Below, in pieces: positions 1-24,000 of a stretch of 24,000 bases of DNA. The stretch covers positions 46,104 through 70,103 of the forward strand of contig DGQK01000023.1 of assembly GCA_002390745.1 (NCBI GenBank), given 5' to 3'. Both the position numbers and the translations under genes were made by a program. Under the pieces are notes generated by a model. The model did no database searches. It was not told where the DNA came from and worked only from the letters and a program-made list of their open reading frames with translations. Every line of letters begins with the position of its first letter. Positions within the stretch are counted from its first letter, which is position 1. Source of the stretch: Bacteroidetes bacterium UBA4416 (GTDB lineage Bacteria; Bacteroidota; Bacteroidia; B-17B0; Aurantibacillaceae).

Positions 1-1
1 C

Positions 2-622
2 CCGTCGTTTATTCCTAAAACGGATGAAACCAGGGTGCAGGTATTGGAAAAGGTACTGACGGCTTATGCAGGCACTGTCTGCTATGTCACCGAGAAACTC
101 GATGGGAGCTCTGTTACTTTTTACCTGAAAGACGGAGAATTCGGTGTGTGCTCAAGGAACCTTGACCTGGCATTCAGTGAAGACAATTCGATGTGGAAGT
201 TTGCCATTGCCAATAAGCTCGAGGACAAGCTAAAAGCGTTGAACCGGAACCTGGCCTTGCAGGGCGAGATCATCGGAGAAGGGATCCAGAAGAATAAATA
301 CAAGTTGAAAGGACAAAGCATTTACTTCTTCAACATCTTCGATATCGATGCCTACAGCTACTTCTCTTTACAGGAAGTGAAGGCTTTGCTGGGCGATCTG
401 GACTTGAACATGGTGCCTGTTCTGGAAGAAAACTATCTCCTGGAAAGCAATGTGGAAGCCCTGGTGGCTAAGTCTAAACTGAAATCGGTTTTGAATAAGG
501 ACACGATTGCCGAAGGAATTGTGATCAGGCCGGTGGAAGAAAAGATCGACAGGAATGTGATGCAGGGCCGGATGTCTTTCAAAGCCATCAACCCGGACTT
601 TTTGATCAAATACGACGAATAG
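2..622 (+). CDS. ATP-dependent RNA ligase, DraRnl/Rnl5-like (5' end outside window)
   Basis: The frame is open from nt 2, with no stop upstream of the listed 35..622 ORF. It has nucleotidyltransferase motif I VTEKLDGSS (KxDG lysine), EGIVIRP, and a C-terminal SFKAINPDFLIKY typical of DRB0094-type RNA ligases. Recognition is from memory. Confidence 0.7.
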   Translation, partial: PSFIPKTDETRVQVLEKVLTAYAGTVCYVTEKLDGSSVTFYLKDGEFGVCSRNLDLAFSEDNSMWKFAIANKLEDKLKALNRNLALQGEIIGEGIQKNKYKLKGQSIYFFNIFDIDAYSYFSLQEVKALLGDLDLNMVPVLEENYLLESNVEALVAKSKLKSVLNKDTIAEGIVIRPVEEKIDRNVMQGRMSFKAINPDFLIKYDE

Positions 623-846
623 AAACCAGGTAACAGGAAGATCACAAAGGATCAGGGCAACCCACAGGCCTGTGGGTATCAAGGAGTATGAACTCTAGAG
701 CGCATGCATGTTCTTTGCGGCGCTGCCCGGATCACTTGGATGCTTCTATACGGAATAAGAAATATGTCAAAACGACCCGTACATAGTTTTATATATCAGC
801 TTCTATCAGTTTATGATAGCTGAATAGGATTGGTATGCGCAAGCAT

Positions 847-880
847 AGGCCCGGTCCGTAACGACCGGGCCTTTGTTTTT
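847..880 (+). terminator. Intrinsic-terminator-like hairpin plus T-run, 3 nt before the first tRNA
   Basis: AGGCCCGGTC-CGTAAC-GACCGGGCCT is followed by TTGTTTTT. It may act as an attenuator or processing structure, because the tRNA array starts immediately after it. Confidence 0.5.
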
Positions 881-883
881 ACT

Positions 884-957
884 GCCTTCTTAACCCAACA
901 GGTAGAGGCGCTTGTCTTAGGAACAAGTTAGTATTGGTTCGGATCCGATAGAAGGTA
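884..957 (+). tRNA. tRNA with anticodon TAG on a short-variable-arm (type I) body, copy 1
   Basis: Hand-folded cloverleaf: acceptor GCCTTCT/AGAAGGT (G1-U72), anticodon stem CTTGT/ACAAG, loop CTTAGGA, 5-nt variable loop, T arm ATTGG-TTCGGAT-CCGAT, discriminator A. It carries a Leu anticodon but lacks the long variable arm of bacterial tRNA-Leu. Confidence 0.6.
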
Positions 958-993
958 CAGAAAAGAAAAAGAGCAACAAAACAAAAAATAAAA

Positions 994-21114: not shown

Positions 21115-22542
21115 ATGAACAAGCAGAACATTACAGGAGAAGACCTGAAAGCCATCGGTTATCCGGAAGGAAAAGCCATTGGAAACGCATTACGTGTGAT
21201 AGAAAAATTATTTGATGGCGCAAGCCGGGAATTGGTGATGACGAAATTACAGCAAGTGCTGGAGAACCCGAAAGGCTTTACGGAGCATACAAGCCTTCAG
21301 TCTGTTGCCAACGCCTTAATAGAGCATGAAAACAGCTTAAGTGACGACCTTATTTCGTTAAACGAAACCGGAAAGCCATATAAAATTTTCGGTGCGGATC
21401 ATATCGAAGAAGGAGCGATCAGCCAGATGGAAGTGGCGATGAAATTGCCGGTAACTGTCGCAGGAGCGTTGATGCCTGATGCGCACCAGGGATACGGCCT
21501 GCCGATTGGCGGTGTGCTGGCTACACATAACGCGGTGATTCCTTATGGCGTCGGCGTGGATATCGGTTGCCGGATGGCGTTGTCGGTGTATGATATTCCG
21601 GAATCTCATTTCCTGGAGAACGCATCCAACTATAAGCGTGAGTTGATTGCCTGGACAAAATTCGGAGCAGGTGCCGGATGGCATGGAAAATTCCGTGCGG
21701 AGCATGGAGTGTTGGACAACGCGACCTTCGGTATGACTCCTTTCGTGAAGAACCTGCATAACAAGGCTTATGAGCAATTGGGATCTTCGGGTGGCGGAAA
21801 CCACTTTGTGGAATTCGGAATCATCGCCTTTGAAAAAGACGATGTGAAGCTGAATATCAAAAAGGGGAACTACCTGGCCTTGTTGACGCATTCCGGTTCC
21901 CGTGGATTCGGTGCAACCATTGCAGGTCATTACACTAAAATTGCGAAGGATCGGTGTAAGCTCCCGAAAGAGGCGGCCAACCTGGCCTACCTGGATATGA
22001 ACAGCGCCGAAGGACAGGAATACTGGCTGGCAATGAACCTGGCCGGTGACTATGCCTCGGCTTGCCATGAAGTGATTCACGACCGGATCACCAGGGCCAT
22101 CGGTGGCAACGTGCTGGCCAAAGTGGAGAACCACCATAACTTTGCCTGGAAAGAAATCTGGAACGGTGAAGAAGTCATCGTTCACCGGAAGGGTGCTACA
22201 CCGGCTTCCAAAGACGTGATGGGAATCATCCCGGGCTCGATGACGGCACCTGGATTCCTGGTGCGAGGTAAGGGAGAAGCGGATGCCATCAACTCGGCTT
22301 CACATGGCGCCGGAAGGCAGATGAGCCGTACACAGGCGATCAAAAGCATCACGAAGAACGAGATGCAGAAGATGCTGAAAGATCATGGCGTGACCCTGAT
22401 AGGCGCCGGATTGGATGAAGCGCCGATGGCCTATAAAAACATTGAAACGGTGATGGCCTCGCAGAAAGACCTGGTAGATGTGGTGGCGAAGTTCACACCA
22501 AAAATGGTGCGGATGGCCGACGACGGAAGCCGCGAGGATTAA
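21115..22542 (+). CDS. rtcB: RNA 3'-phosphate/2',3'-cyclic-phosphate ligase RtcB with about 85-aa N-terminal extension
   Basis: RtcB motifs VGVDIGCRM, GGGNHFVEF, HSGSRGFG, ENHHNFAW, HRKGAT, IPGSM, and SASHGAGR (nucleophilic His). Confidence 0.92.
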   Translation: MNKQNITGEDLKAIGYPEGKAIGNALRVIEKLFDGASRELVMTKLQQVLENPKGFTEHTSLQSVANALIEHENSLSDDLISLNETGKPYKIFGADHIEEGAISQMEVAMKLPVTVAGALMPDAHQGYGLPIGGVLATHNAVIPYGVGVDIGCRMALSVYDIPESHFLENASNYKRELIAWTKFGAGAGWHGKFRAEHGVLDNATFGMTPFVKNLHNKAYEQLGSSGGGNHFVEFGIIAFEKDDVKLNIKKGNYLALLTHSGSRGFGATIAGHYTKIAKDRCKLPKEAANLAYLDMNSAEGQEYWLAMNLAGDYASACHEVIHDRITRAIGGNVLAKVENHHNFAWKEIWNGEEVIVHRKGATPASKDVMGIIPGSMTAPGFLVRGKGEADAINSASHGAGRQMSRTQAIKSITKNEMQKMLKDHGVTLIGAGLDEAPMAYKNIETVMASQKDLVDVVAKFTPKMVRMADDGSRED

Positions 22543-22550
22543 TGATGAAA

Positions 22551-22646
22551 CGTCATTGCGAGCGAAGCGAAGCAATCTCATTTTAATGAAAGATTGCTTC
22601 GTTTCCGAATCAAGTCCGGAACAGGCTGTTTTTCCCCGCAATGACG
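22551..22646. repeat. Palindromic CGTCATTGCG-type REP/MITE-like element
   Basis: Terminal inverted repeat CGTCATTGCG/CGCAATGACG and inner inverted repeat GAAGCAATCT/AGATTGCTTC, located directly after the rtcB stop. Confidence 0.75.
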
Positions 22647-22681
22647 CTACCCCAGCATAAACGAAAAGCAAAACAAAATCT

Positions 22682-23173
22682 TTGAATGACCTTATGAAAA
22701 CGGAATTAATCTACGAATTGCACAATGCGGGCTGGGCAAGCCTGAAAATACATGACGGGCATAAGGAATTTCACTATGCTGTTTCTTATCTGTATGACAG
22801 CTTGTGCGAATTGTCGGTAGCTACCGTTAACCTGCTGAAGCATAGGGAATCAGGTTCCGTGATTTTCATGGATGAGCCCGGAGAGCTGAAATTAGAGATT
22901 GAAAAGCTAAATGCTGGGCAGGTCAGGCTTACAGGAAAATGGTATGCGGATTGGGCAAGCTGGGGGATGTTCCCTAAAGATCGCTTCCGGATTGATTTTT
23001 CGTTCGACATGGGTCTGAACGATTTTGCAGCAGATGTTTTATTACATTTAGAATCCATATACATTACCGATGGAGTGGACGGTTATCTGGAAAAGTGGTG
23101 CGAACATGAATTTCCATTAAAGAATTATTTACGATTAAAGAAATTACTTAATGAACACACAAATACAAGATAA
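22682..23173 (+). CDS. Hypothetical protein
   Basis: 163-aa ORF (TTG 22682 or ATG 22694) that overlaps the next gene by 23 nt, which suggests co-translation with the RlaP genes. I recognise no motif. Confidence 0.5.
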   Translation: MNDLMKTELIYELHNAGWASLKIHDGHKEFHYAVSYLYDSLCELSVATVNLLKHRESGSVIFMDEPGELKLEIEKLNAGQVRLTGKWYADWASWGMFPKDRFRIDFSFDMGLNDFAADVLLHLESIYITDGVDGYLEKWCEHEFPLKNYLRLKKLLNEHTNTR

Positions 23174-23936
23174 ACTAAAAGACATAGAAGCACAGTATGG
23201 CGTGAAGATCCTTTACGCCTGCGAAACGGGCTCGCGTGCCTGGGGCTTTCCTTCACCCGACAGCGACTATGATGTGCGGATGATCTATATGCATGACATC
23301 GACTGGTACTTGTCGCTGTCGGATAAAAAAGACACGATCGAGTTTATGTCGGAGGACGGTGAGCTGGATGTGACCGGCTGGGACATCAAAAAATGCCTCA
23401 AGTTGATGTGGAAATCCAACGGCGCGTTATTGGAGCGCGTACAATCGCCGATCCTTTACAGGGAAGTGCCGGGAATCCAGGAGCTCCTGCAATCCTATTC
23501 TCAGCGCTGCTTTGCGCCAATAGCCGCTATGCACCATTACCTGGGAATGGCGAGGAACAGCTTCTCCGATGTGGAAGGGAAGGATGAGGTAAAACTCAAA
23601 AAGCTGTTCTATGCTTTGCGCGCCACACTATGCTGCAAATGGATCCTTGAAAAGGATGCCGTGCCGCCCATCGTGTTTGCCACGATGGTAGACGAGCTTG
23701 CCTTTGATGAACAATTGAAACAGCGAATCCGTGCCTTGGTAGACCTGAAATCCGGGGAGTCGGAACGTTATTACCACCCGGCGGAACATGAGATCAACGC
23801 ATTTATCTTTGCTGAGCTCGACAAGGCGGGAAATGCTTTCAACAGCCTCAAAGGAAGAAAAGACAATCAGACCGACCTGGATGCTTTATTCAGGCAGATC
23901 GTAAAAACATACGCGTATGAACCTGCAGGAAGTTAA
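23151..23936 (+). CDS. Pol-beta-fold nucleotidyltransferase, RlaP-like (RNA-repair-associated)
   Basis: N-terminal CETGSRAWGFPSPDSDYDVR (GS...DxD NTase motif) and a length of about 260 aa, typical of the PF10127-type family as I recall it. Confidence 0.7.
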   Translation: MNTQIQDKLKDIEAQYGVKILYACETGSRAWGFPSPDSDYDVRMIYMHDIDWYLSLSDKKDTIEFMSEDGELDVTGWDIKKCLKLMWKSNGALLERVQSPILYREVPGIQELLQSYSQRCFAPIAAMHHYLGMARNSFSDVEGKDEVKLKKLFYALRATLCCKWILEKDAVPPIVFATMVDELAFDEQLKQRIRALVDLKSGESERYYHPAEHEINAFIFAELDKAGNAFNSLKGRKDNQTDLDALFRQIVKTYAYEPAGS

Positions 23937-24000
23937 ACAATCACATCTCTTGTTGCTGGAATGTGTCAGCGGCAGCCGGGCTTATGGCTTACACACCCCT
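23917..24000 (+). CDS. Second RlaP-like nucleotidyltransferase (3' end outside window)
   Basis: ATG 23917 opens MNLQEVKQSHLLLLECVSGSRAYGLHTP, which has the same GSRAxG NTase start as the upstream paralog. It overlaps that gene by 20 nt and is too short for the ORF track. Confidence 0.55.
   Translation, partial: MNLQEVKQSHLLLLECVSGSRAYGLHTP

What the first reader, a model, noticed from the sequence alone, without database searches (positions are those of the whole stretch)
1..24000. Unusually complete RNA-repair super-island combining two ligase types, Ro60, an exonuclease, NTases, spare tRNAs and Y RNAs
One window holds an Rnl5/DraRnl-type 5'-P/3'-OH ligase, an RtcB 3'-P ligase, two RlaP nucleotidyltransferases, a DEDDh exonuclease, Rsr, an SPFH protein, a WYL regulator, 12 tRNA genes and at least 8 Y-like RNAs. 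Pairwise linkages such as Rsr with Y RNA and RtcB, or RlaP with RNA ligase, have been noted in comparative-genomic surveys of RNA-repair systems. The combination with a large decoy or spare-RNA repertoire and the radical-SAM cassette looks like an integrated counter-measure to RNA-targeting toxins or phage-defence nucleases. As a whole it is experimentally uncharacterised.
Basis: inference. Interest (0 to 1): 0.7.

Follow-up and report, generated by a model that had tools for sequence, protein, structure and literature searches.

The report
Clustered RNA-repair genes with helper RNAs
This stretch of a Bacteroidota chromosome packs together most known bacterial tools for mending or replacing damaged tRNA and ribosomal RNA, plus about two dozen small RNA genes; the parts are known kinds, but their number, their shared control sites and three oddly altered tRNAs make it a good model locus.

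Summary
The inventory is real. Profile searches confirm an Rnl5-type ligase (cut by the left edge), Rsr, SPFH, an ERI1-like DEDDh exonuclease, a WYL/WCX regulator, RtcB, one full RlaP and the first 28 codons of a second.

The "12 tRNAs" are 8 canonical genes, one Ser(UGA)-like gene and three Pro/Tyr genes with a hairpin in the T loop.

Eight Y-like RNAs share a covarying stem whose signature clusters only beside rsr, in five independent lineages. A separate tandem tRNA-like RNA precedes SPFH in 58 related loci.

A two-core operator (TGCGCA-N7-TGCGCA) sits at the WYL/rsr promoters and again before rtcB, 12 kb away. It recurs beside WYL genes across Bacteroidota, so these operons probably form one regulon.

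Same-strand tRNA arrays upstream of SPFH are general and skewed towards split-codon-box tRNAs.

In relatives the cluster extends left to RtcB2, PrfH and a Thg1-like enzyme.

- The radical-SAM genes are the STM4011-4015 cassette. It stands alone in other genomes and lacks the operator, so it is probably an insertion.
- No integrase or composition shift marks a mobile island.
- A secreted-peptidase block interrupts the cluster.

Verdict: a composite of known RNA-repair modules with new variants. Interest is moderate to high.

The parts
2..622 (+). Rnl5 (DraRnl/NgrRnl)-type ATP RNA ligase, nucleotidyltransferase domain only; the ORF is open at the left edge
   Evidence: PF09414 103 bits. TIGR02306 positions 160-341. 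NgrRnl PDB 5cot E 7e-31. Frame read. Full-length relatives carry PHA02142 OB plus RNA_ligase.
630..880 (+). Conserved structured RNA or 3' UTR after the ligase, ending in a terminator-like hairpin with a T run (about 840-876)
   Evidence: z-score -4.6 for 630-770. Near-identical in L090. Terminator read from the sequence.
884..1143 (+). tRNA-Leu(UAG) 884-958, tRNA-Gln(UUG) 994-1065, tRNA-Leu(UAG) 1069-1143
   Evidence: ARAGORN; Rfam tRNA.
1208..1300 (+). Four-hairpin cloverleaf-shaped RNA without T-loop motif, function unknown
   Evidence: MFE fold, frequency 0.19. Conserved in L090.
1312..1393 (+). Probable class II tRNA-Ser(UGA) with one mismatch in the T stem
   Evidence: tRNA-Sec model 35.8 bits, below its gathering score. 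Cloverleaf MFE. The L090 copy has a perfect T stem. Ser(tga) is called in L095.
1402..1475 (+). tRNA-Ile(UAU)
1485..1570 (+). tRNA-Pro(UGG)-like gene with a hairpin (TCACGCC-GG-GGCGTGA) inserted after GGTTC of the T loop
   Evidence: Not called by ARAGORN. Called Pro(tgg) after in-silico removal of the hairpin. Fold. Orthologue in L090 with loop changes.
1572..1645 (+). tRNA-Arg(ACG)
1659..1745 (+). Second tRNA-Pro(UGG)-like gene with the T-loop hairpin
   Evidence: Rfam tRNA 22 bits for the 5' part.
1747..1906 (+). tRNA-Phe(GAA) 1747-1820 and tRNA-His(GUG) 1833-1906
1912..2003 (+). tRNA-Tyr(GUA)-like gene (class II) with the same T-loop hairpin
   Evidence: Called Tyr(gta) after in-silico repair. 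Conserved in L090, while L170, L094 and L091 have normal Tyr.
2003..2125 (+). Strongly structured conserved RNA upstream of the STM4015 promoter
   Evidence: z-score -4.3; aligned with L090.
2132..2145 (+). Promoter-like box CGTTCTTTGACATC, shared with 10858-10871 and (CGTTCTTTGAATAC) 11744-11757
   Evidence: (D7, I3). Conserved upstream of STM4015 in L170, L090 and L094.
2214..7922 (+). STM4015 (2214-3149), STM4014 ATP-grasp (3152-4276), HAD (4282-4974), STM4013 hydrolase (4953-5777), STM4012 HemN-like radical SAM (5761-7080), STM4011 radical SAM (7077-7922). A self-contained cassette, probably inserted here.
   Evidence: NCBIfam, the five STM families above cut-off. Pfam, including HAD. Stand-alone in L171 and L172.
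7916..8932 (-). WYL/WCX transcription regulator, divergent from rsr
   Evidence: PF13280 and PF25583. PADLOC WYL. Weak PafC match in the WCX part.
8981..9001 (.). Operator 1: CTGCGCATTCTATTTGCGCAG (two TGCGCA cores 13 bp apart) at the WYL promoter
   Evidence: Conserved in L081, L082, L084 and L170.
9082..9101 (.). Operator 2: CTGCGCAATTACACTGCGCA, 85 nt upstream of rsr
   Evidence: 0.01 expected.
9186..10703 (+). Rsr (bacterial Ro60): TROVE plus vWA
   Evidence: PF05731 107 bits; vWA_Ro60 25.9 bits, just under its cut-off.
10893..11633 (+). Array of six Y-like RNAs: 10893-11022, 11030-11123, 11136-11205 (no tRNA module), 11207-11335 and 11484-11633 (YrlA-type T arm, closed acceptor hairpin, D arm), 11345-11478 (permuted tRNA-like variant)
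   Evidence: Sequence and alignment. YrlA weak match 25.1 bits. Unit architecture. Covariation. Signature confined to rsr loci.
11639..11712 (+). tRNA-Lys(UUU) embedded after the Y array (two or three copies in relatives)
11782..12165 (+). SPFH-associated RNA: 5' hairpin (CAUAGUGUC...AUAUUCUGC), then tandem tRNA-like modules (T arms at 11917 and 11974, closed acceptor hairpins, D arms), ending at a terminator-like hairpin at 12143-12158. The ends are inferred.
   Evidence: Twin T loops in 58 related loci. Consensus structure with compensatory changes in 24 of 28 pairs. Terminator scan.
12340..14468 (+). SPFH/slipin (12340-13440), small S24-like protein (13494-13811), ERI1-like DEDDh 3'-5' exoribonuclease (13926-14468)
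   Evidence: Order conserved in L081-L087.
14562..14785 (+). Two mini Y-like RNAs (14562-14634, 14639-14708) and a tRNA-like minihelix with a T arm (14718-14785)
15245..20878 (.). Interruption not belonging to the system: unknown 212-aa ORF (15245-15883), fatty-acid-hydroxylase homologue with a late frame change (15895-16622), unknown 235-aa ORF (16657-17364), T9SS-secreted M43/PKD peptidase (17372-20878, minus strand)
   Evidence: In L084 the unknown ORFs stay with the peptidase, not with the exonuclease.
21057..21076 (.). Operator 3: CTGCGCAATTCCACTGCGCA, 40 nt upstream of rtcB
   Evidence: Conserved in L086, L087 and L089.
21115..24000 (+). RtcB (21115-22542), unknown 163-aa ORF (22682-23173), RlaP (23151-23936), start of a second RlaP (23917-24000, cut by the window edge)
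   Evidence: L087 has RtcB, a zf_Tbcl protein, RlaP(261) and RlaP(341).

Best explanation
The window is the middle of a chromosomal neighbourhood of at least 33 kb in a Bacteroidota (Chitinophagales-like) genome. Several known modules for maintaining translation RNAs have accreted around an ancestral unit: tRNA array, WYL regulator (divergent), tandem tRNA-like RNA, SPFH, RtcB.

Shown:
- (i) The WYL/rsr promoters and the rtcB promoter 12 kb away carry the same two-core operator. This operator sits next to WYL genes across the phylum, so rsr (with Y RNAs, SPFH RNA, SPFH, S24-like protein and exonuclease) and rtcB-RlaP-RlaP probably form one regulon.
- (ii) Eight Y-like RNAs have a covarying stem that is found only beside rsr.
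- (iii) tRNA arrays rich in split-codon-box tRNAs are a general upstream component.

Inferred mechanism:
- The WYL domain senses an RNA-damage signal and releases or activates the operons.
- RtcB reseals 2',3'-cyclic-phosphate/5'-OH breaks.
- The Rnl5 ligase seals 3'-OH/5'-phosphate nicks.
- RlaP transferases and the ERI1-like exonuclease tailor ends.
- Rsr, loaded by Y RNAs, channels misfolded or broken RNA to decay, or shields it.
- SPFH with its tRNA-like RNA acts as a scaffold.
- The array supplies replacement or decoy tRNAs.
- In relatives, RtcB2-PrfH rescue damaged ribosomes and a Thg1-like enzyme rebuilds tRNA 5' ends.

The STM4011-4015 cassette and the peptidase block are probably passengers.
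For: - Families.
- Operator: exactly two direct-repeat copies (0.01 expected) before rsr and rtcB, plus one at WYL. It is conserved in relatives. Paired TGCGCA-type cores lie within about 100 nt of the WYL start in 17-18 of 20 distant loci.
- Synteny: 58 of 80 SPFH loci have RtcB within 10 kb, 27 have WYL upstream, and RlaP, Rsr and the exonuclease are recurrent accessories.
- Rnl next to tRNA arrays, Rsr, RlaP, RtcB or WYL-SPFH in L091, L098, L105, L115, L121, L122, L124, L127 and L130.
- Extension to RtcB2-PrfH-(FtsH-like)-Thg1-like-Rnl on one contig (L170).
- Y signature clusters only at rsr loci. A viral contig picked by motif alone also has Rsr.
- Covariation: 94% paired against 68% shuffled; 13 of 15 pairs with double changes.
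- SPFH RNA: 24 of 28 pairs compensatory.
- tRNA density is 27 per 100 kb. Of 395 calls, 340 lie 0.5-5 kb upstream of SPFH. Within 3 kb on the same strand, 71% are split-box tRNAs.
- Precedent: in Anabaena a tRNA array, rtcB, a slipin and a RimK-like ligase are co-repressed and induced by translational stress (PMC8421152, PMC10272220).
Against: - No expression, binding or activity data exist for this locus.
- The operator is absent from the Rnl/tRNA-array and RtcB2-PrfH parts, so not everything is one regulon.
- Unrelated genes interrupt the cluster.
- No Y-like unit reaches the Rfam YrlA threshold.
- The 3' strands used for stem covariation were chosen by complementarity, so only the Y-R pair and the permutation control are free of that bias.
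- The tRNA composition argument relies on my recollection of toxin specificities.
- The key survey (Burroughs and Aravind 2016) could not be read here.
Confidence: 0.6

Rival explanations
1. Loose neighbourhood only. Independent RNA-metabolism modules happen to sit near each other, as defence genes cluster in hot spots, and do not work together beyond the small operons already known (rsr with Y RNA, SPFH with RtcB, Rnl with RlaP, RtcB with PrfH).
For: Modules occur separately or in other combinations in most related loci. Unrelated genes lie between them. No operator lies near Rnl, the tRNA array or RtcB2-PrfH.
Against: The shared operator links two operons 12 kb apart. The same partners recur across deep divergence. 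tRNA arrays are strongly and directionally enriched upstream of SPFH.
Confidence: 0.2
2. The radical-SAM/ATP-grasp (STM4011-4015) cassette is a working part of the system, for example modifying a ribosomal protein or RNA, or making a small molecule during translational stress.
For: It stays next to the tRNA array in four genomes of this clade. Its promoter shares the 14-nt box CGTTCTTTGACATC with the Y-array promoter. Its ATP-grasp is RimK-like, and a rimK operon belongs to the Anabaena stress regulon (PMC10272220).
Against: It stands alone among polysaccharide-use and other genes in Haliscomenobacter and Chitinophaga. It is absent from L091 and from all deeper RNA-repair loci. It has no WYL operator and no PADLOC system match. 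The shared box may be only a strong -33 promoter region.
Confidence: 0.15
3. Remnant of a phage or other mobile element that brought tRNAs, ligases and Ro/Y RNA, as some large phages carry.
For: Rnl and RlaP match phage protein families. tRNA arrays with U34 anticodons are phage-like. One predicted viral contig has Rsr plus a Y-like unit.
Against: There are no integrase, structural or replication genes within 10 kb on either side in relatives. G+C is flat at 0.44-0.53. Chromosomal position and order hold from 73% to 99% identity relatives.
Confidence: 0.05

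Closest known systems
rsr-yrlBA-rtcBA RNA repair operon of Salmonella (Rsr, YrlA/YrlB Y RNAs, RtcB; PMC4201824, PMC7790460)
   Same: Rsr is followed on the same strand by Y RNAs, some with a tRNA-like domain made of T arm, closed acceptor stem and D arm. RtcB is in the same regulon. Smaller Y RNAs without the tRNA module exist (YrlB).
   Different: The regulator is WYL/WCX, not the sigma-54 CARF protein RtcR, and there is no RtcA. There are eight units instead of two. 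The stem motif is GYCGUARA...UACUUCG rather than GNCGAAN0-1G. No unit reaches the Rfam YrlA threshold. rtcB is displaced by 12 kb.
SPFH/Band-7 with a tRNA-like RNA, and RlaP with ligases, in the comparative-genomic survey of RNA repair systems (Burroughs and Aravind 2016; recalled from its abstract, paper not held)
   Same: SPFH next to RtcB with a cognate tRNA-like RNA. RlaP transferases next to ligases. Modular shuffling of ligase, transferase, end-modifying and scaffold parts.
   Different: Here nearly all module types are stacked in one neighbourhood. An operator, upstream tRNA arrays and a Y-RNA array are defined. I could not check how much of this the survey already reports.
Anabaena translational-stress regulon: long tRNA array (trn operon), rtcB, slipin, rimK, controlled by TrcR (PMC8421152, PMC10272220)
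   Same: Spare tRNA array, RtcB, an SPFH/slipin protein and a RimK-like ATP-grasp are under common repeat operators. They have been proposed as tRNA pool maintenance or toxin sponges.
   Different: The regulator there is a ribbon-helix-helix repressor and the genes are dispersed (array on a megaplasmid, 26 tRNAs). Here the regulator is WYL, the genes are physically clustered, and Ro/Y RNAs, Rnl5 and RlaP are added.
RtcB-PrfH ribosome rescue and repair pair (PMC9304027)
   Same: Relatives of this locus carry a second RtcB directly followed by an RF-1-domain PrfH.
   Different: That pair lies outside the window and is seen only in relatives L090, L094 and L170. It has no WYL operator.
Phage tRNAs that replace or resist cleavage by host anticodon nucleases (PMC10264068, PMC11555353, PMC11464382)
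   Same: Arrays of extra tRNAs for species such as Tyr and Lys that are targets of tRNA-cleaving systems.
   Different: Here the arrays are chromosomal, next to repair enzymes. Three members are altered in the T arm rather than the anticodon loop.

Membership tests
YrlA / bacterial Y RNA (Rfam RF02553) | Encoded within 4 kb of rsr on the same strand | tested here: met
   Six units lie 190-930 nt after rsr and two more about 3.9 kb after it, all on the + strand. The same holds in L016, L059, L098 and L115.
YrlA / bacterial Y RNA (Rfam RF02553) | Terminal stem formed by the 5' and 3' ends, carrying the conserved Ro-binding motif (GNCGAAN0-1G in YrlA, PMC4201824) | tested here: inconclusive
   The stem is strongly supported. 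The motif here is GYCGUARA plus UACUUCG, which is similar but not identical. Binding was not tested.
YrlA / bacterial Y RNA (Rfam RF02553) | tRNA-like domain (T arm, closed acceptor stem, D arm) | tested here: met
   Present in 11207-11335 and 11484-11633, with variants in 11030-11123 and 11345-11478. Absent in 11136-11205, 14562-14634 and 14639-14708.
YrlA / bacterial Y RNA (Rfam RF02553) | Score at or above the Rfam gathering threshold (69 bits) | tested here: not met
   Best 25.1 bits, E 0.013 on the sub-region.
YrlA / bacterial Y RNA (Rfam RF02553) | Bound by Rsr in the cell | not testable with these tools
   Needs an Rsr pull-down.
tRNA (RF00005) | Cloverleaf with a canonical T loop, called by ARAGORN or Rfam | tested here: met
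   Eight genes pass. 1312-1393 and the three T-hairpin variants do not.
Rnl5 (DraRnl/NgrRnl) RNA ligase | N-terminal OB domain followed by a nucleotidyltransferase domain with KxDG | tested here: inconclusive
   The window holds only the transferase domain with KLDG. Full-length relatives at 76-87% identity have PHA02142 OB plus RNA_ligase.
RtcB ligase | PF01139 above cut-off | tested here: met
   274.7 bits.
RlaP nucleotidyltransferase (PF10127) | Full-length match to PF10127 | tested here: met
   263.9 bits over 1-249 of 249 for 23151-23936. The second copy is only 28 codons, with the GSRAYG motif.
Ro60/Rsr | TROVE ring domain plus vWA domain | tested here: met
   TROVE 107 bits. vWA_Ro60 25.9 bits, slightly under its 27.7 cut-off.
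SPFH-associated tRNA-like RNA | Structured tRNA-like RNA directly upstream of the SPFH gene of SPFH-RtcB operons | tested here: met
   Twin T arms 57-72 nt apart in 58 related loci. 24 of 28 consensus pairs are compensatory. The published definition could not be consulted.
HTH-WYL-WCX regulators (PafBC/DriD/BrxR type) | WYL and WCX domains, and a conserved operator at its own promoter | tested here: met
   Domains. Operator next to WYL in 17-18 of 20 distant loci. The N-terminal HTH was not detected by Pfam. The ligand is unknown.
STM4011-STM4015 cassette | All five NCBIfam families above cut-off, in order | tested here: met
   335, 374, 383, 542 and 399 bits. The same order holds in L171 and L172.
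Mobile genomic island | Integrase, attachment site at a tRNA, deviating composition, variable presence | tested here: not met
   No integrase within 10 kb in relatives. G+C 0.44-0.53 without a step. Order kept in relatives from 73% to 99% identity.

The most novel reading that the evidence does not exclude
The WYL-SPFH-RtcB system of Bacteroidota is a tRNA-centred damage-response system. Its upstream arrays are dedicated back-up or decoy copies of the tRNAs that anticodon nucleases attack. The T-arm-hairpin Pro/Tyr variants and the mini Y RNAs are decoys or nuclease-resistant forms, not translation substrates. The WYL regulator would sense broken tRNA, making this a host-side mirror of phage tRNA counter-defence.
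Probability: 0.2. Interest if true: 0.8.

Novelty: new variant of a known kind. Interest (0 to 1): 0.6.

Why it matters
Bacterial RNA repair is known mostly from enzyme biochemistry and gene-neighbourhood surveys. What the enzymes repair, what Ro/Y RNAs and SPFH proteins do, and what signal switches the genes on are still open.

This locus offers testable handles in one place:
- a defined operator and candidate sensor;
- eight Y-like RNAs with a clear binding-stem signature;
- a conserved SPFH-linked RNA;
- tRNA arrays whose make-up points to anticodon-nuclease targets.

The three tRNAs with a hairpin in the T loop are, as far as I could find, without precedent. They could show how tRNA mimics arise from real tRNAs.

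Tried and rejected
- An exact-sequence look-up of the window's Rsr found no source contig.
- Burroughs and Aravind 2016 is not held, so overlap with that survey rests on my memory of its abstract.
- Rfam at its gathering score finds only tRNAs. The E-value search gave weak YrlA hits only.
- My first automatic stem finder gave spurious partners and was replaced.
- The ORFs at 15245-15883, 16657-17364 and 22682-23173 have no Pfam, NCBIfam or PHROG match, and the minus-strand ORF 15880-16506 has no Pfam or PHROG match. The two searched against PDB (15245-15883 and 22682-23173) also found nothing.
- The minus-strand ORF 15880-16506 is spurious. It overlaps a fatty-acid-hydroxylase homologue on the plus strand.
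- PADLOC gives no defence-system assignment to the STM cassette.
- The T-loop hairpin pattern has at least 120 viral-contig hits. That is roughly what I estimate by chance for a pattern of this length. None is a tRNA, and the 2 apparent calls had no tRNA context.
- I first thought the radical-SAM cassette was missing from the 73% relative. It is present there, next to the tRNA array but separated from WYL by SprB/PorP genes.
- A sigma-70 promoter scan is uninformative for this phylum.

Full report
**What is in the window**

Six-frame ORFs scanned against Pfam and NCBIfam give the following, left to right.
- The C-terminal 195 residues of an RNA ligase (2-622). It matches PF09414, positions 160-341 of TIGR02306 (DRB0094 type), and Naegleria NgrRnl in the PDB at E 7e-31. 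It keeps the KLDG motif. The N-terminal OB domain is off the left edge. Full-length relatives at 76-87% identity have PHA02142-OB plus RNA_ligase.
- A 1.5-kb RNA field.
- Six genes that are the STM4015, STM4014 (RimK-like ATP-grasp), HAD, STM4013, STM4012 (HemN-like radical SAM) and STM4011 (radical SAM) cassette. The five STM families score above curated NCBIfam cut-offs and HAD is identified by Pfam.
- A WYL/WCX regulator on the minus strand.
- Rsr (TROVE plus vWA).
- A second 1.6-kb RNA field.
- SPFH, a small S24-like protein, and a DEDDh exonuclease closest to ERI1/3'hExo.
- A third RNA field.
- Three poorly defined ORFs and a T9SS-secreted M43/PKD peptidase on the minus strand.
- RtcB, an unknown 163-aa ORF, RlaP, and the first 28 codons of a second RlaP.
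- A relative, L087, shows RtcB, a zf_Tbcl protein, RlaP(261) and RlaP(341), followed by housekeeping two-component and efflux genes.

**tRNAs**

ARAGORN and Rfam agree on eight: Leu UAG twice, Gln UUG, Ile UAU, Arg ACG, Phe GAA, His GUG and Lys UUU. 1312-1393 folds as a class II Ser(UGA) cloverleaf with one T-stem mismatch.

Three further genes are tRNA-Pro(UGG) twice and tRNA-Tyr(GUA), in which the T loop reads GGTTC, then TCACG-loop-CGTGA. ARAGORN calls them only after the hairpin is replaced in silico by a normal loop remainder.

The same variants occur in L090 (87% ligase identity), with loop and stem changes that keep the hairpin. L170, L094 and L091 have normal Pro and Tyr genes at those places. 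I found no analogue among at least 120 viral-contig pattern hits.

**Y-like RNAs**

The two fields after rsr and after the exonuclease are highly conserved in relatives down to 73% protein identity. Whole units are gained and lost.

The units share one plan:
- a 6-bp outer stem;
- a bulged U, then G-C and Y-R pairs;
- an internal loop (5' CGUARA, 3' UCGYYUNUU);
- a 7-8-bp middle stem;
- UACUUCG;
- then either a YrlA-type module (T arm, closed acceptor hairpin, D arm) or nothing.

Evidence that the units are real and Rsr-linked:
- The signature TGYCGT-N7-13-NACTTC occurs in same-strand clusters of 2-7 only in loci that contain rsr (window, L081-L087, L016, L059, L098, L115), with 5-7 per full-length locus. 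It occurs as rare singletons elsewhere in 2.2 Mb.
- A motif-only scan of viral contigs returned one contig that also has Rsr.
- The true 5' strands find partners far more often than permuted ones: 63% against 13% at score 10 or more.
- On a 20-unit alignment, 94% of cells pair against 68% in shuffles. Thirteen of 15 pairs show double changes, and slid controls collapse.
- The Y-R pair was not used to choose partners. It is C-G 9, U-A 9, U-G 2, with no mismatch.

Eight window units fit this plan, and five fit the strict signature. Rfam YrlA aligns 11484-11633 over its whole model, but at 25 bits against a gathering score of 69. These are therefore a divergent, Bacteroidota-type set of Y RNAs, and membership by the curated threshold fails.

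**SPFH-associated RNA**

The element at 11905-12036 is not a Y RNA. Twin T loops 57-72 nt apart lie 350-700 nt upstream of SPFH in 58 related loci.

A 55-sequence alignment gives a consensus with compensatory changes in 24 of 28 pairs: stem, T arm, closed acceptor hairpin, D arm, then a second T arm and hairpin. This fits the tRNA-like RNA that the 2016 survey's abstract links to SPFH. That is my recollection, because the paper is not held.

**Regulation**

CTGCGCA-N6-CTGCGCA occurs exactly twice in the window: 85 nt before rsr and 40 nt before rtcB (0.01 expected). A third version sits at the WYL promoter.

The core is two TGCGCA boxes 13 bp apart. The sites are conserved in relatives. In 17-18 of 20 distant loci, a pair of such boxes lies within about 100 nt of the WYL start.

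No site lies near the ligase, the tRNA array, the STM cassette or, in relatives, RtcB2-PrfH.

A separate box, CGTTCTTTGA(C/A)AT, heads the Y array, the SPFH RNA and the STM cassette. It may be only a strong -33 promoter region.

**Synteny**

- Eighty Bacteroidota loci with 51-62% identical SPFH were annotated by tblastn. RtcB lies within 10 kb in 58, WYL upstream in 27, RlaP in 7, and Rsr and the exonuclease in 3 each. None has the STM cassette, the ligase or the peptidase.
- Close relatives keep the window's order. Extra genes sit between the exonuclease and the peptidase in L081, L082 and L089 (exosortase and VIT) and in L084 (a sortilin/PKD protein).
- Eighty loci found with the ligase show it next to tRNA arrays, Rsr, RlaP, RtcB or WYL-SPFH in L091, L098, L105, L115, L121, L122, L124, L127 and L130.
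- L091 reads ligase, eight tRNAs, WYL(-), SPFH, with no STM cassette.
- L170, L090 and L094 show that the neighbourhood continues to the left: RtcB2 (50% to the window RtcB), PrfH, an FtsH-like or unknown gene, a Thg1-like enzyme, then the ligase.
- The STM cassette is alone among unrelated genes in Haliscomenobacter hydrossis and Chitinophaga agri.
- No integrase or composition step was seen.

**tRNA arrays as a general component**

ARAGORN finds 395 tRNAs in the 1.44 Mb of SPFH loci, or 27 per 100 kb. Of these, 340 lie 0.5-5 kb upstream of SPFH, and 35 of 77 loci have three or more within 2.5 kb.

Among the 218 same-strand calls within 3 kb upstream, Phe, Tyr, Asn, Lys, His, Ser-GCU, Asp, Gln, Cys and Glu dominate. 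About 71% are split-codon-box species, while Ala, Gly, Val, Thr and Pro together make about 6%.

From my own knowledge, these are the species attacked by colicin E5, colicin D, PrrC and zymocin-type nucleases. Tyr and Lys are also targets of retron and PARIS effectors that phage tRNAs counteract (PMC11555353, PMC11464382, PMC10264068). Some ARAGORN calls could be tRNA-like modules rather than genes, but the regular arrays and standard anticodons argue that most are genes.

**How it most likely works**

Shown:
- family identities;
- RNA structures by covariation;
- the shared operator;
- recurrent linkage.

Inferred:
- The WYL regulator responds to an RNA-damage cue and switches on two operons.
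- RtcB, the Rnl5 ligase, RlaP and the ERI1-like exonuclease heal and seal broken RNAs.
- Rsr with its Y RNAs, and SPFH with its RNA, organise or triage substrates.
- The array refills or shields the tRNA pool.

The Anabaena work is a functional precedent. There, a tRNA array, rtcB, a slipin and a rimK operon are co-repressed by TrcR and induced by translational stress (PMC8421152, PMC10272220).

**Verdict**

The idea of one integrated unit holds for a WYL-controlled core and, more loosely, for the ligase and tRNA array. It does not hold for the radical-SAM cassette or for a mobile island.

All module types are known. What is new:
- the Bacteroidota-type Y-RNA arrays;
- the operator that ties a displaced rtcB operon to rsr;
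- the general, compositionally skewed tRNA arrays;
- the T-loop-hairpin tRNA variants.

Noticed in passing
window 1485-1570, 1659-1745, 1912-2003; L090 11487, 11583, 11753, 12068: Two tRNA-Pro and one tRNA-Tyr gene carry the same hairpin (TCACG-loop-CGTGA) inside the T loop. Close relatives have normal genes there. The identical arms in unrelated tRNAs suggest gene conversion, targeted insertion or selection.
   Followed up: partly
L090 about 12010-12060: One Tyr-like T-hairpin copy in the relative also has a roughly 49-nt insertion in its anticodon loop.
   Followed up: no
window 1208-1300: Conserved RNA that folds into a closing stem with four hairpins (tRNA-shaped) but has no T-loop or D-loop motifs.
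   Followed up: partly
window 630-770 and 2003-2125: Two strongly structured, conserved RNAs (z -4.6 and -4.3) flank the tRNA array. There is no Rfam match.
   Followed up: partly
window 10857-10879 and 11718-11740: A 23-nt inverted repeat (96% complementary) brackets the Y array plus tRNA-Lys. Both arms contain the CGTTCTTTGA box, so the block may be invertible or simply flanked by two promoters.
   Followed up: no
window 14493-14532 and 22561-22600: A 40-nt repeat (75% identical) with a hairpin lies just after the stop codons of the exonuclease and of RtcB. It may be a shared terminator or a small repeat element.
   Followed up: no
window 15895-16622: A fatty-acid-hydroxylase homologue (77% identical to the gene in L081) changes frame near its 3' end and has no obvious start. 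It may be a pseudogene. The minus-strand ORF 15880-16506 is an artefact.
   Followed up: partly
window 14790-15245: About 450 nt between the tRNA-like minihelix and the next ORF are almost identical in close relatives but have no assigned feature.
   Followed up: no
L001-L080, 0.5-5 kb upstream of SPFH: tRNA arrays of up to 13 genes are common upstream of SPFH-RtcB operons. They are depleted in Ala, Gly, Val, Thr and Pro tRNAs.
   Followed up: partly
L170 3415-5463; L094 6268-8325: An FtsH-like protein (AAA plus M41 peptidase, about 685 aa) sits between PrfH and the Thg1-like gene in two relatives. L090 has an unrelated 465-aa ORF there.
   Followed up: no
L175 1277-2993: A contig classed as viral carries Rsr (59% identical) followed by a Y-like unit with the same stem signature.
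   Followed up: partly
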